Notes under the pieces: model-generated
Databases searched by the model: none
What the model saw: the letters and a program-made list of their open reading frames with translations, nothing else
Told to the model about the DNA's origin: nothing
Shown: piece by piece, positions 5,671-8,428 of the stretch
Layout: the number at the start of each line of letters is the position of its first letter
Position numbering within the stretch: the first letter of the stretch is position 1
NCBI GenBank assembly: GCA_963707955.1
Contig: OY970176.1
Span: 1,472,001-1,536,000 of the forward strand
Length of the DNA: 64,000 bases
Origin: Candidatus Bathyarchaeota archaeon
Lineage (GTDB): Archaea; Thermoproteota; Bathyarchaeia; Bathyarchaeales; Bathycorpusculaceae
Direction: 5' to 3'
Translations under genes and position numbers: made by a program

Positions 5671-6099
5671 ATGGAAATCCGTAGGCTAACCGCAGTCGAC
5701 TACAAGGAAATCGTGAAGTTTTGGTCCATTACTCAACTGCCTCATAAACCAAGGGGCCGTGACAGCGAGCAAGCAATAGCGTTGGAAATGAAAGCTAATC
5801 CAGACTTTTTCTTGGGAGCCTTCGAGCATGGGCGTCTTGTTGGAACAGTAGTCATAAGTTGTGACCTGAGAAAGGGTTGGATAAACCGTTTAGCTGTGCA
5901 TCCAGCCTTTAGAACCCGCGGCATAGCGAGGGCCCTAATCGATGAAAGCGAGAGAATCCTTAGAAAACGCGGTGTGAGACTCTTCTGTGTTTTGATTGAA
6001 GGTTCGAATGTTGCGTCGAAAAACCTCTTCAGAAAGTGCGGCTATGAGGAGCATCATGATATACTGTATTTTGCTATACTTTTTAGTAAAATAAACTAG
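5671..6099 (+). CDS. GNAT acetyltransferase with C-terminus replaced by an inserted element
   Basis: RLAVHPAFRTRGIA acetyl-CoA motif; the apparent original tail (LYF)SKRDSGDV* is found at 8818-8853 beyond the insertion. Confidence 0.85.
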   Translation: MEIRRLTAVDYKEIVKFWSITQLPHKPRGRDSEQAIALEMKANPDFFLGAFEHGRLVGTVVISCDLRKGWINRLAVHPAFRTRGIARALIDESERILRKRGVRLFCVLIEGSNVASKNLFRKCGYEEHHDILYFAILFSKIN

Positions 6100-6117
6100 A
6101 TGAGTTTAAGTATGCCT

Positions 6118-6154
6118 GTCTCAATTCCCATTGCTTGGGATTTTTCCATGCACC
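6118..6154 (-). repeat. solitary CRISPR-repeat-like unit (37 nt)
   Basis: Minus strand GGTGCATGGAAAAATCCCAAGCAATGGGAATTGAGAC: TCCCA/TGGGA hairpin followed by 8-nt ATTGAGAC handle-like tail. Confidence 0.55.
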
Positions 6155-6255
6155 TAACAGTACGGGAGGAGTAACGTGGCTAGGCGTAGTATTCCGCGTA
6201 TCGCGCCAGCATATACATTACTTAATCCCATTCGCCGTCTCTATTCGCCATCCAG

Positions 6256-6286
6256 CTTCAAATTCTTTCTGGAAGCCCAGTGCAAC
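6256..6286 (-). repeat. second CRISPR-repeat-like unit (31 nt)
   Basis: Minus strand GTTGCACTGGGCTTCCAGAAAGAATTTGAAG; GTTGCA start and AAGAATT(T)GAAG end resemble archaeal repeats. Confidence 0.45.
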
Positions 6287-6382
6287 CACCTCTCTTGAAC
6301 ACAAAAGCCAATCCTATTTGACACACAGAATAGGAAACGCTTATACAGTAGTACGTCAACTCTGTTGTACGAGGCAACTCGC

Positions 6383-6610
6383 ATGGAGAACGTAGTGAAA
6401 GTAACGCGAAGAGGACAAACCACAATCCCTGTGGAATTCAGGCAGAAGTTTGGAATCAAGGAAGGAGATCAACTGATGGTTGAAGCCACTGAGAAAGGAT
6501 TGCTCTTTAGGCCGATCCCCAGACTTGAAGACATGGCAGGCATAGACGCAAAATACGGCAAAGTGGAGGAAGTCAAGAAGCACATAGACAAACTCCGCGA
6601 GGAATACTAG
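6383..6610 (+). CDS. vapB: AbrB/MazE-fold antitoxin (VapB-like)
   Basis: VKVTRRGQTTIPVEFRQKFGIKEGD swapped-hairpin motif; directly upstream of a PIN gene. Confidence 0.88.
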   Translation: MENVVKVTRRGQTTIPVEFRQKFGIKEGDQLMVEATEKGLLFRPIPRLEDMAGIDAKYGKVEEVKKHIDKLREEY

Positions 6611-6612
6611 GC

Positions 6613-7011
6613 TTGAAAGAAGTCTTGGACACAAGATTCTTCACTGAACACTTCTACTCCGATCAGGTGCAGACAAAACAGATAACAGCGAGAAGACTGA
6701 GAGAACTAACAAGCAGAAACGAAGGAATATTGCCCACCATCGTCATCTCTGAAGTCATCCAAATAACCTGCGAAAAAAGAGGAAAAGAACTAGCAGAGAC
6801 TCGCTATCATGCGCTCATGGAAAGCGGACTCCAAATCCAAAGCTTGACCCCAACCATCGCCAAACAGGCCGGCCTCATCAAATGCCAACACAAAAACATC
6901 CCTATGGGCGACTGCATAATAGCCGCAACCGCCATAACTAGCCAAGCACGCATACTCTCTGACGACCCACACTACGACACAATAAAAGAAACCAAACGCA
7001 CATGGATCTAA
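6613..7011 (+). CDS. vapC: PIN-domain toxin (VapC-like)
   Basis: VLDT, ISE, MGDCIIAATA, LSDDPHY acidic PIN motifs; 132 aa. Confidence 0.88.
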   Translation: MKEVLDTRFFTEHFYSDQVQTKQITARRLRELTSRNEGILPTIVISEVIQITCEKRGKELAETRYHALMESGLQIQSLTPTIAKQAGLIKCQHKNIPMGDCIIAATAITSQARILSDDPHYDTIKETKRTWI

Positions 7012-7198
7012 GAAAGGAATAGACAGACAAGACATGCACGTCTTGAAAAGCCGAGAAAACCGGCACGCTTCATCTACTTATGCATCAGGCTTGCCCCGAA
7101 ATTATGGGGTAAATCTGAAAAGCTAGTGTCAGATGAGTTTTTGGCACCGAAACGATCAGTGCCGCAGATTCATGTCACACTCAATAAAGCATTGGAGT

Positions 7199-7996
7199 TC
7201 AAGATTTCACGTTCAGCTTGATCACACCGAATCCTCCTGTTCTGTTGCCGCCTACGCTCGCATACTCAGCGAAATTTGCCAGCATACACGTTATTTTGTT
7301 CCATTCGCTTTCCTGATCCTTTAGTTCATAAGTAGCCCAGCCAACGAAACCTGTTGCCTTCTTCCTCCTCATGGTTGCCAACCTCGTCCACAACTCATAC
7401 TCGCTCACACCCACGTTCTTGTCCAGCCACTCCCTATACGCCACGTACTCCTCTTTCCCAAACCGTCTCCCATCACTGAACAAGTTCCAACAACGCATCA
7501 AACCCGAAAAAACCTTTACAGCATCAGGAAACATCCAATGATAACCACTTCCCAAACTGGCAAAATACGTAGGCGACCTAAACGAAAGCCTAAACGCATC
7601 CGCTACTCCAGCTTCCTTCTCCAACTCCTCATAACTCTTACAGTTCACGCTCAGCGAAGCGATACGAAAGACCGTATCAAAAACCATCAAGCTATTCTGC
7701 TTCTGAAAGAAACTAAGCAAGAACGTCGAATACTCGTCCTTCAAAAACCTGAAACCGACCCGACAAGGAAACAACGGATCCAGCACATAACCACCCTCAG
7801 CGCGGCTCTTACTCCTAAACCGCAAAGGCGTCACGCTATAAGGCTTAGACACGTTCAACTAATGCAACAAACCAGACGCACCAGGATCAACCATCCTAAC
7901 AACATGCAACAACAAACCACGAGCCACATAACCCGTAAAAAACGGCAAAACCGTACTTTTCTCTGCATACATCTCCAAACCAATCTCAACAGGCAA
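7199..7996 (-). pseudogene. cas6: CRISPR-associated endoribonuclease Cas6 with one in-frame TAG at codon 46
   Basis: TTG start 7996, MPVEIGLEMYAEKSTVLPFFTGYVARGLLLH...LLH*LNVSKPYSVTPL; FRSPTYF; C-terminal G-rich loop VGGNRTGGFG; TAG at 7859-7861. Confidence 0.85.
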
Positions 7997-7999
7997 CTA

Positions 8000-8024
8000 C
8001 ATTCAACTCCCATATATGGGATTG
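8000..8024 (-). repeat. CRISPR-repeat-like hairpin in the cas6 leader
   Basis: Minus strand CAATCCCATATATGGGAGTTGAATG ending 3 nt before the cas6 TTG; same AATCCCA/TGGGA stem and RTTGA tail as 6118-6154. Confidence 0.55.
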
Positions 8025-8230
8025 CGATACACTGCTCTATACAAGAAAGGCGAAGTATCAACTTAAGACTTTTTTCATCTTCATTCTCTGCTGTGGTTTA
8101 TCGCGACTATCCTTCAGCCCAGTTTTTCTGCCTAGGGGTCGAGCATTTGCGACTGCCGACAAAACTGCGCCCAATAGTACAAGCTAAACATCGAATGAAA
8201 CTCATGTAAAAAATGCAGAAGTGACATAAA

Positions 8231-8428
8231 TTGAAAAATAAATCAAAATTCCTGCGCCAAGCATTAATCGGTTTCATCTTGTGGACACTATTTCTTAGTC
8301 CATACATGCTTTTTGTCGCTCATGTAAACCTTGCGCAGTATCTATGGTGGCTATTGATGGAAGGCTTACTTGTACCTCCCATTTCTATTGTCGTTATTAA
8401 CGTTACGAATAGACTAACTAAACAATAG
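8231..8428 (+). CDS. small hypothetical membrane protein
   Basis: 65 aa with two hydrophobic segments; AT-rich cargo of the element. Confidence 0.5.
   Translation: MKNKSKFLRQALIGFILWTLFLSPYMLFVAHVNLAQYLWWLLMEGLLVPPISIVVINVTNRLTKQ

What the first reader, a model, noticed from the sequence alone, without database searches (positions are those of the whole stretch)
7994..8030. CRISPR-repeat-like hairpin covering the cas6 ribosome-binding site: possible Cas6 self-cleavage feedback
Seen: on the coding strand CAATCCCATATATGGGAGTTGAATG ends 3 nt before the cas6 TTG. The SD-like GGGAGTTGA overlaps the 3' arm of the TCCCA/TGGGA stem, which is followed by an 8-nt GTTGAATG tail. The same stem and an ATTGAGAC tail occur at 6118-6154. 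Known: Cas6 cuts at the 3' base of repeat hairpins and leaves an 8-nt handle. Inference: Cas6 could bind or cut its own leader and remove or occlude its SD (negative autoregulation), or convert the mRNA to a near-leaderless form.
Basis: partly seen in the sequence, partly recalled or inferred. Interest (0 to 1): 0.7.

Follow-up and report, generated by a model that had tools for sequence, protein, structure and literature searches.

The report
CRISPR-repeat mimic on cas6 ribosome site
A short hairpin just before the cas6 gene copies the part of the CRISPR repeat that Cas6 normally cuts, and it is conserved in front of most related cas6 genes, so Cas6 probably controls its own production, although in this genome the gene is broken and the system is a relic.

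Summary
On the minus strand, AATCCCATATATGGGAGTTGA (8023..8003) lies 6 nt before the cas6 TTG start (7996). A second unit at 6154..6118 is a solitary 37-nt CRISPR repeat.

The organism is a Bathyarchaeia archaeon. CRISPR repeats in nine related genomes all end in AAATCCC-loop-GGGAATTGAAAG. The cas6 leader copies that hairpin and the start of the handle. The one consistent change is A to G right after GGGA, which creates a GGAG Shine-Dalgarno core.

A strict form of the motif sits 8-12 nt before the start codon in 46 of 78 homologous loci (17 more carry variants), with 34 different loops. It is always a single unit, never a mini-array. In an intact same-genus relative, cas6 is the first gene of a type I-D-like effector operon.

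The best reading is a Cas6 operator, bound or cut, that overlaps the ribosome-binding site and gives post-transcriptional autoregulation. No binding or cleavage was tested.

The local copy is vestigial. cas6 carries a recent GAG-to-TAG nonsense codon (7861..7859). The genome has no CRISPR array and none of the other cas genes searched for.

My literature searches found only Cascade-guided mini-array regulators and synthetic Cas6 switches, not this arrangement.

The parts
8003..8023 (-). Repeat-mimic hairpin with SD-like tail, AATCCCATATATGGGAGTTGA. The 5' arm is TCCCA 8021-8017, the loop is TATA 8016-8013 and the 3' arm is TGGGA 8012-8008. GGAG 8010-8007 is the SD core.
   Evidence: Sequence. 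The same motif sits at the same place in 46 of 78 homologous loci. It matches the 3' part of the lineage's 37-nt repeats. The 16S 3' end is GGATCACCTCCT.
8007..8008 (-). Position equivalent to the Cas6 cut site in a repeat (GGGA|ATTGAAAG). Here it lies between A8008 and G8007. A cut would leave an 11-nt leader, GTTGAATGTAG, before the TTG.
   Evidence: Inferred by aligning the leader with the repeats. The 8-nt handle is general knowledge about Cas6. It was not measured here.
8061..8076 (-). Promoter-like box, GAAAAAAGTCTTAAGT (BRE/TATA-like), 45 nt upstream of TCCC.
   Evidence: a TATA-like word lies 32-55 nt upstream of the hairpin in 36 of 47 motif-bearing leaders (the window plus 46 loci), most of them reading GAAAGTTTTAA. 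Calling it a promoter is an inference.
7199..7996 (-). cas6 gene: TTG start 7996-7994 and TGA stop 7201-7199, 265 codons. It is broken by an in-frame TAG at 7861-7859 (codon 46).
   Evidence: Pfam PF10040, E 9.7e-15. Eleven intact homologues at 53-88% identity were aligned, and 10 of the 11 have E at this position. Contigs of 3 runs from one study match the window across the codon with no differing letters.
7859..7861 (-). Nonsense codon TAG, where homologues have Glu.
   Evidence: TAG is an ordinary stop in this genome, ending 295 of 892 long frames. No PylS was found above cut-off.
6118..6154 (-). Solitary 37-nt CRISPR repeat, GGTGCATGGAAAAATCCCAAGCAATGGGAATTGAGAC, with a degenerate 3' end.
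   Evidence: 34 of 37 positions are identical to the array repeat of genome G065 and 31 of 37 to that of G032. There is no neighbouring second repeat.

Best explanation
The hairpin is a conserved mimic of the part of the lineage's CRISPR repeat that Cas6 recognises: the AATCCC/GGGA stem plus the first bases of the 8-nt handle. It is built into the ribosome-binding site of cas6.

In intact relatives cas6 opens a type I effector operon. Free Cas6 would bind this operator, and perhaps cut after GGGA. Binding would cover the GGAG Shine-Dalgarno core; cutting would remove it. Either would lower translation of cas6 from its weak TTG start. When much pre-crRNA is present, Cas6 would be drawn off to the array repeats and translation would rise.

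Shown here:
- the sequence itself and its conservation;
- its likeness to the repeats;
- its fixed position before the start codon;
- that it is a single unit;
- the operon context in relatives.

Inferred:
- that the hairpin lies in the transcript;
- that Cas6 binds or cuts it;
- the direction of the effect on expression.

In this genome the element is a relic. cas6 carries a recent nonsense mutation, and the arrays and other cas genes are gone.
For: 1. Repeat likeness. The 37-nt repeats of 9 related genomes all read ...AAATCCC-(7 nt)-GGGAATTGAAAG. The leader reads AATCCC-loop-GGGAGTTGA.

2. Conservation.
- Strict motif TCCC-N3-9-GGGA[GA]T(T)GA in the last 45 nt before the start: 46 of 78 loci.
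- Of the other 32, I read 17 as variants and 15 as lacking it.
- The same 78 loci (846,698 nt counting both strands) hold only 8 further strict hits, and all 8 are true array repeats.

3. Footprint. In alignment A2 the columns AATCCC and GGGAGT are at least 90% conserved, against a mean column identity of 54%. Among the 46 strict-motif leaders there are 34 different loops of 5-8 nt. Synonymous divergence among the closest cas6 genes is already 0.49-1.5 per site, so unconstrained leader bases should have drifted.

4. Fixed geometry. GGGA ends 8-12 nt before the start codon in all 46 strict cases.

5. SD overlap.
- The 16S 3' end, GGATCACCTCCT, implies an SD of GGAGGTGA.
- SD words are about 3-fold enriched before ATG starts, with peak spacing of 6-11 nt.
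- The genome's usual SD word GGAGGTGA precedes a long ORF in 24 of 72 occurrences. GGAGTTGA does so in only 3 of 115.
- The T kept in the cas6 leaders therefore looks like repeat identity rather than SD optimisation.

6. Context. In same-genus G003 the order is cas6, cas3' helicase, an HD-bearing large subunit, csc2-type cas7 and one more gene, with cas6 first. An array, csa1, cas1, cas2 and cas4 lie nearby. G018 also has cas6 first.

7. A promoter-like box lies 32-55 nt upstream of the hairpin.
Against: - No binding, cleavage, transcription start or expression data exist. No RNA run was available.
- There is no base-pair covariation. The 4-bp stem is nearly invariant, and shuffles reach the observed scores often: 34 of 500 for percentage paired, 152 of 500 for pairs changed on both sides.
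- Leaders with altered stems do not track their own repeats. L121 has TCCT/AGGA, and L081 and L119 have TCTC/GGGG, yet the arrays of those genomes keep TCCC/GGGA.
- The base after the cut-equivalent site is G in 45 of 46 leaders but A in every repeat read. That might prevent cleavage or even recognition.
- The hairpin alone is weak (z = -1.47).
- 15 of 78 homologues do without the element.
- All cases belong to one Cas6 clade of one class. They are related, not independent.
- The local cas6 is broken.
Confidence: 0.6

Rival explanations
1. The element is a fossil repeat reused only as a ribosome-binding site. An old terminal CRISPR repeat next to cas6 supplied the GGAG, and perhaps an SD-masking hairpin. 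It is kept for translation alone, with no role for Cas6.
For: - The A-to-G change creates GGAG in 45 of 46 leaders.
- The spacing fits the genome's SD spacing.
- Leader stems and repeat stems do not co-vary.
- Arrays lie directly downstream of cas6 in some loci, so cas6 and repeats are old neighbours.
Against: - The 5' arm and the two unpaired A bases before it (AATCCC) are at least 90% conserved, although they have no SD role.
- The leaders keep GGAGTTGA. That word rarely precedes genes here (3 of 115), unlike the usual GGAGGTGA (24 of 72).
- A 4-5 bp stem is too weak to mask an SD unaided.
Confidence: 0.2
2. The element produces a self-guide. Cas6 cuts after GGGA, and the downstream RNA, carrying a handle-like GUUGA tag followed by the first codons of cas6, is loaded into the effector complex. 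It acts as a crRNA-like RNA that sits on the cas6 DNA and represses transcription, as CreR and CreA do.
For: - Repeat-like regulators that guide Cascade to cas promoters are documented, including near cas6 in type I-B (passages read in 10.1101/2023.03.03.530964, and 10.1101/2023.03.10.532045).
- In S. solfataricus, an RNA with a single repeat-like motif next to cas6-3 is cut by Cas6-3 and found in the Csm complex (PMC4041471, passages).
Against: - There is no second repeat-like unit within 300 nt on either side in 0 of 78 loci.
- The last three handle positions and the distance to the start codon vary (8-12 nt).
- The first handle base differs from the repeats in 45 of 46 leaders.
Confidence: 0.08
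3. The element is a chance palindrome next to a pseudogene, with no function in any lineage.
For: The local hairpin is not unusually stable, and the window count alone is only mildly above chance.
Against: The motif holds the same position in 46 of 78 homologous loci. The only other strict hits in 846,698 nt are 8 true repeats.
Confidence: 0.02

Closest known systems
CreR/CreA and other CRISPR repeat-like regulatory mini-arrays (Shmakov et al. 2023, 10.1101/2023.03.03.530964; CreR preprint 10.1101/2023.03.10.532045; passages read)
   Same: Both are degenerate copies of the system's own repeat, placed at a cas gene and used for autoregulation that could sense crRNA load. Repeat-like sequences are reported as enriched near cas6 in type I-B.
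   Different: The known elements are mini-arrays of repeat, spacer-like guide and repeat. Their RNA guides Cascade to a PAM-flanked DNA target in a promoter, so the control is transcriptional. This element is a single partial repeat with no spacer or second unit (0 of 78 loci). It sits on the ribosome-binding site, which points to Cas6 itself acting on the mRNA.
ncRNA60 of Saccharolobus solfataricus (Sokolowski et al. 2014, PMC4041471; passages read)
   Same: It is a non-CRISPR RNA with a single repeat-like motif encoded next to a cas6 gene, and it is cut in vitro by that Cas6. The AB repeat printed in that paper also reads AAUCCC...GGAAUUGAAAG.
   Different: ncRNA60 is a separate small RNA of unknown function whose precursor cannot form the stem. 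It is not in the cas6 5' UTR and does not overlap a ribosome-binding site.
Synthetic Cas6f/Csy4 switches, e.g. the MORTISE system (PMC13478208; search listing and passages). Earlier Csy4 5'-UTR devices are recalled from memory, not from a call.
   Same: A Cas6-family protein acts on a repeat hairpin placed at or near a ribosome-binding site to control translation.
   Different: Those devices are engineered. My term search of that paper found 0 occurrences of 'autoregulat', so it appears not to describe a natural self-regulating case.
Autoregulation by mimicry of the protein's main RNA target: threonyl-tRNA synthetase operator, ribosomal-protein operon leaders, archaeal L7Ae, MS2 coat protein operator (all recalled from memory, no call)
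   Same: An RNA-binding protein represses its own mRNA through a copy of its normal substrate that overlaps the ribosome-binding site. Competition with the real substrate sets the level.
   Different: The proteins and RNAs are different, and none of these cases involves a CRISPR nuclease. This is a resemblance in logic only.

Membership tests
CRISPR repeat of the Bathyarchaeia 37-nt family | Sequence match to the hairpin and handle start (AATCCC ... GGGA ATTGA) | tested here: met
   The leader AATCCC-loop-GGGAGTTGA matches repeats from 9 genomes at all of these positions except A to G after GGGA.
CRISPR repeat of the Bathyarchaeia 37-nt family | Match over the full 37 nt, including the 5' third and the ATTGAAAG handle | tested here: not met
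   The leader's 5' part, GTATCGC, is unlike G(A/G)TGCA..GGAAA. The handle GTTGAATG matches ATTGAAAG at 5 of 8 positions (by inspection).
CRISPR repeat of the Bathyarchaeia 37-nt family | Occurs in a regularly spaced array | tested here: not met
   The genome has no array. No second unit lies within 300 nt on either side in 0 of 78 loci.
CreR/CreA-type regulatory mini-array | Two degenerate repeats flanking a spacer-like guide | tested here: not met
   The element is a single unit in all 78 loci.
CreR/CreA-type regulatory mini-array | Guide seed complementary to a PAM-flanked site in a cas promoter | not tested
   No guide could be defined without a second repeat.
Cas6 substrate or operator RNA | Bound or cleaved by the cognate Cas6 | not testable with these tools
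   This needs protein-RNA biochemistry or mapping of RNA 5' ends. No RNA run was listed.
Translational operator overlapping the SD | Structure includes the SD at working distance from the start codon | tested here: met
   GGAG 8010-8007 lies in and just after the 3' arm, 10 nt before the TTG. The anti-SD comes from the 16S 3' end and the genome's SD spacing peaks at 6-11 nt.
Translational operator overlapping the SD | Element lies inside the transcript | tested here: inconclusive
   A promoter-like box lies 32-55 nt upstream of the hairpin in 36 of 47 leaders. No transcription start was mapped.
Cas6 endoribonuclease (PF10040) | Profile match above the curated cut-off | tested here: met
   55.5 bits against a cut-off of 25. 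It is the only such match in the genome.
Cas6 endoribonuclease (PF10040) | Intact reading frame | tested here: not met
   TAG at codon 46, where 10 of 11 homologues have E. All 12 near-full-length homologue matches in relatives are open; two of them are cut short by contig ends.

The most novel reading that the evidence does not exclude
Cas6 cuts its own leader after GGGA. The downstream fragment carries a handle-like GUUGA tag followed by the first cas6 codons. It is loaded into the type I effector as a built-in self-guide that parks the complex on the cas6 promoter-proximal DNA. One partial repeat would then give both RNA-level and DNA-level feedback without any mini-array.
Probability: 0.08. 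Interest if true: 0.85.

Novelty: new variant of a known kind. Interest (0 to 1): 0.62.

Why it matters
CRISPR systems are known to limit their own expression with repeat-like RNAs that guide the effector complex to cas promoters. This element points to a simpler and more direct circuit. The processing nuclease Cas6 would read a copy of its own substrate on its own ribosome-binding site, at the head of the effector operon.

That arrangement would let the cell match Cas production to the amount of unprocessed CRISPR RNA. It would be the natural counterpart of the engineered Csy4/Cas6f switches.

It is cheap to test: one protein, two short RNAs and a reporter. It also suggests a general search, looking for repeat mimics in the last 40 nt before cas6 genes of other lineages.

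For this genome, the finding dates the decay of a CRISPR-Cas system. What remains is an orphan cas6 with one fresh nonsense codon, two solitary repeats, and a CRISPR leader followed by a single repeat.

Tried and rejected
- **TAG read as pyrrolysine: rejected.** TAG ends 295 of 892 long frames. Aragorn found no CUA tRNA among the 26 it detected. The best PylS match is 26.9 bits against a cut-off of 178. A PYLIS_1 match at 7108-7202 scores 18 bits against a gathering score of 70, with E = 1.3, and is not at the TAG.
- **CRISPR array in the genome: none.** Exact 18-mer and 12-mer spacing scans found only two coding beta-helix repeat regions. Tandem Repeats Finder found nothing relevant in the window.
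- **Other cas genes.**
  - tblastn with nine G003 Cas proteins found only cas6 and weak Cas1 and helicase matches.
  - There were no RAMP, Cas2 or DevR matches.
  - Cas1 gave four partial matches, two of them with stops.
- **Covariation in the stem: no support**.
- **Co-variation between variant leaders and their genome's repeats: not seen** in the 3 genomes where arrays were found. Two further genomes, G062 and G064, showed no array with the pattern used.
- **Folding energy: not significant**.
- **Rfam:** no CRISPR-DR or other family matched 5900-8300.
- **RNA evidence:** no RNA holder was listed, so 5' ends could not be examined.
- **Genome hit at 542616:** it lies in an open frame and I treat it as chance.
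- **Link between the hairpin and cas6 being first in its operon: weak.** A same-strand ORF ends within 200 nt upstream in 7 of 46 hairpin loci against 10 of 28 others (Fisher p = 0.051). This comes from a crude ORF rule applied to related genomes.
- **Supplementary tables of the Shmakov paper** could not be opened. They may list repeat-like hits near archaeal cas6 genes.

Full report
**What is in the window**

On the minus strand the sequence reads AATCCCATATATGGGAGTTGAATG, then TAG, then TTG (8023..7994). The TTG at 7996 opens a 265-codon frame that Pfam assigns to CRISPR_Cas6 (PF10040, E 9.7e-15, 55.5 bits against a cut-off of 25). This is the only such match in the genome. The stem is TCCCA/TGGGA with loop TATA. 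GGAG (8010-8007) lies 10 nt before the start.

TCCCA-N2-8-TGGGA occurs twice in the window against 0.37 expected, and 5 of 100 shuffles reach 2. The extended form with N-TTGA occurs 4 times in the whole genome. One of those four lies in an open frame and I treat it as chance. The hairpin is not unusually stable: -7.2 kcal/mol, z = -1.47.

**The genome**

The window lies in a single 2.35-Mb contig of 47.9% G+C. Record titles of the closest loci name Bathyarchaeia.

The genome has no CRISPR array. Scans for spaced exact 18-mers and 12-mers found only two coding beta-helix repeat regions.

It also lacks the rest of the system:
- tblastn with nine Cas proteins from the same-genus genome G003 found only cas6, plus weak Cas1 and helicase matches at 22-29% identity.
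- RAMP, Cas2 and DevR profiles found nothing.
- Cas1 gave four partial matches, two of them with internal stops.

cas6 itself has an in-frame TAG at 7861-7859. Ten of 11 aligned homologues have Glu there, so a single GAG-to-TAG change would explain it. TAG is an ordinary stop here, ending 295 of 892 long frames. No PylS reaches its cut-off.

Contigs from three runs of one study match the window across the TAG codon without any differing letter. These runs may include the sample the genome came from. Pairwise dN/dS for the local gene against seven close homologues is 0.09-0.17, the same range as among the intact genes (0.08-0.19). The gene was therefore under purifying selection until recently, and the nonsense codon is young.

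**The repeats of the lineage**

Arrays in nine related genomes carry 37-nt repeats that all end in AAATCCC-(7 nt)-GGGAATTGAAAG.

- The window's unit at 6154..6118 is identical at 34 of 37 positions to the G065 repeat and at 31 of 37 to the G032 repeat. Its 3' end is degenerate (GAGAC in place of GAAAG). It is a solitary repeat.
- A third unit lies 45 kb upstream of the window's start, at G000 1427102-1427138. It reads GATTCATGGGAAAATCCCAATTAGTGGGAATTGAAAG and matches the G003 repeat at 32 of 37 positions.
- That third unit is preceded by sequence 84.5% identical over 142 nt to the leader of the G003 array. This is a CRISPR leader followed by one remaining repeat. It sits between a ribosomal protein S17e-like gene (my reading of the ORF translation, no family search) and a fragment that looks like an integrase.

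**The cas6 leader is a repeat mimic**

The leader shares AATCCC, the stem partner GGGA and the following TTGA with the repeats. It does not share their 5' third or the last three handle bases. The one consistent difference inside the shared part is the base after GGGA. It is A in every repeat I read and G in the leader, which creates GGAG.

**Conservation**

A search of 60 relatives found near-full-length cas6 matches in 12, all open, at 53-88% identity (two run off a contig end). Most of them show the same leader.

A wider scan of one genome per species returned 80 loci.
- I dropped 2 loci (L103, L106) whose match does not start at residue 1.
- Of the remaining 78, 46 have TCCC-N3-9-GGGA[GA]T(T)GA within the last 45 nt before the start codon.
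- By eye, 17 more carry variants: a wobble or compensated stem such as TCTC/GGGG, CTCA/TGAG or TCCT/AGGA, or a changed tail.
- 15 have nothing recognisable.
- Several of the 78 loci are the same contigs as, so the two sets are not independent.
- All loci belong to one Cas6 clade. The two homologues from outside Bathyarchaeia, at 49% and 39% identity, lack the motif.

In the same 78 loci (846,698 nt counting both strands) the strict motif occurs only 8 more times, and each of those is a true array repeat.

In the 46 strict cases GGGA ends 8-12 nt before the start codon. The loops are 5-8 nt long with 34 different sequences. The base after GGGA is G in 45 and A in 1.

Alignment A2 holds the window plus 64 loci; the 14 I judged at that stage to lack the motif were left out. 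In it, AATCCC and GGGAGT are at least 90% conserved, while the mean column identity is 54%. Synonymous divergence among even the closest genes is 0.49-1.5 per site.

A relative present in a run from a second study has a contig that runs on past the window at 7995 with the letters CATCAGCTCAGCTCCCTTTGGCGGGATTAC on the plus strand. Their reverse complement again shows AATCCC, a new loop and GGGAG.

**What the comparisons do not show**

There is no covariation. The 4-bp stem is nearly invariant and 96.1% of cells pair, but shuffles reach the observed values often (34 of 500 and 152 of 500). The pattern of fixed arms and free loop fits a sequence-specific protein site. It does not prove a structure.

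Leaders with altered stems do not follow their own repeats. In G061, G063 and G065 the arrays keep TCCC/GGGA.

**Ribosome-binding site and promoter**

The 16S rRNA ends in GGATCACCTCCT, so the full SD would be GGAGGTGA. SD words are about three times more frequent in the 20 nt before ATG starts than in a control window, with spacing peaking at 6-11 nt.

The leader's GGAG therefore lies at a working distance. GGAGGTGA precedes a long ORF in 24 of 72 genomic occurrences. GGAGTTGA does so in only 3 of 115. The T that the cas6 leaders keep is thus what the repeat has, not what the ribosome prefers.

A TATA-like word lies 32-55 nt upstream of TCCC in 36 of the 47 motif-bearing leaders examined; in most relatives it reads GAAAGTTTTAA. 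In the window it is GTCTTAAGT, 45 nt upstream. Given the usual archaeal spacing between TATA box and start site (recalled, not measured here), the hairpin would lie in a 5' UTR of roughly 35-55 nt.

**Context in intact relatives**

In G003 the array, its leader, csa1, cas1, cas2 and cas4 lie on one strand. On the other strand the order is:
- cas6;
- a Cas3' helicase;
- a 789-residue protein with a weak HD match;
- a Csc2-type Cas7 (56 bits against a cut-off of 38);
- one more gene.

cas6 comes first, with 18 nt before the next gene. This is type I-D-like. G018 also has cas6 first in a type I operon whose other genes, apart from Cas3', match no NCBIfam model. The element is a single unit everywhere: 0 of 78 loci have a second TCCC-N3-9-GGGA within 300 nt on either side.

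**Mechanism**

I commit to a Cas6 operator. Free Cas6 recognises the repeat-like hairpin on its own mRNA, where the 3' arm and the next base form the SD core. It then either blocks the ribosome or cuts after GGGA, which would leave an 8-12 nt leader without GGGA. The weak TTG start, shared by most homologues, would make translation depend strongly on that SD. Pre-crRNA would compete for Cas6 and relieve the repression.

The steps from "Cas6 recognises" onward are inference, and so is the direction of the effect. The G after the cut-equivalent site could mean binding without cutting.

The rivals are:
- a fossil repeat kept only as a ribosome-binding site (0.2);
- a self-guide loaded into the effector (0.08);
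- chance (0.02).

**Comparison with what is known**

My searches and the passages I read found the following:
- repeat-like mini-arrays whose RNA guides Cascade to cas promoters, including near cas6 in type I-B;
- a single repeat-like RNA cut by Cas6-3 in S. solfataricus, of unknown function;
- a processing motif matching Cas6 sites that is biased to mRNA 5' regions in S. acidocaldarius;
- engineered Cas6f translational repression;
- a review section on CRISPR self-control that lists DevTRS and tracr-L.

None describes a single partial repeat on the cas6 ribosome-binding site. The library does not hold most subscription journals, and supplements were closed, so I cannot claim it is absent from print.

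**Verdict**

The local copy is a relic beside a freshly broken cas6. At the level of the lineage this is a new variant of CRISPR self-regulation that can be tested directly.

Noticed in passing
window 6365-6610 (+) and 6613-7011 (+): A toxin-antitoxin pair lies between cas6 and the solitary repeat: a MazE/AbrB-type antitoxin (PF04014, E 4.4e-10) followed by a PIN-domain toxin (PF01850, E 3.7e-13). It occupies the place where relatives have the effector genes.
   Followed up: partly
G000:C1:1426997-1427138 (locus L006 about 7998-8139): A CRISPR leader, 84.5% identical over 142 nt to the G003 array leader, is followed by a single repeat. It looks like a collapsed array. It lies beside a 201-residue ORF that resembles the C-terminal part of an integrase, which is my reading of the ORF with no family search.
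   Followed up: partly
G000:C1:2258379-2259146, 862528-862974, 227778-228074, 2026633-2026785: There are four partial Cas1 matches. Two have internal stops, and they share only about 29% identity with the G003 Cas1. They are possibly remnants of something other than the lost type I system.
   Followed up: no
window 8002-7994 (-): ATG-TAG-TTG: a start codon followed at once by a stop sits directly in front of the cas6 TTG, in frame with it. The close homologues do not share it.
   Followed up: partly
L125 3001-3563; L127 3001-4090: In two other genomes a truncated cas6 5' fragment that still carries the leader hairpin is followed on the same strand by array repeats. In L125 a CRISPR leader precedes two repeats. 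These look like other stages of decay of the same locus type.
   Followed up: partly
L070 4072-4290; also L062, L068: In some relatives the array starts a few hundred nt downstream of cas6 on the same strand, so cas6 and the array may be co-transcribed.
   Followed up: no
G000:C1:1279700-1280300 and 2287500-2288700: Two regions hold 66-69-nt tandem coding repeats. They look like beta-helix repeat proteins, which is my reading with no family search. They were the only spaced repeats in the genome.
   Followed up: no
whole genome G000: Aragorn without intron settings found only 26 tRNA genes in a genome rated 97% complete. Many tRNAs probably carry introns or are split.
   Followed up: no
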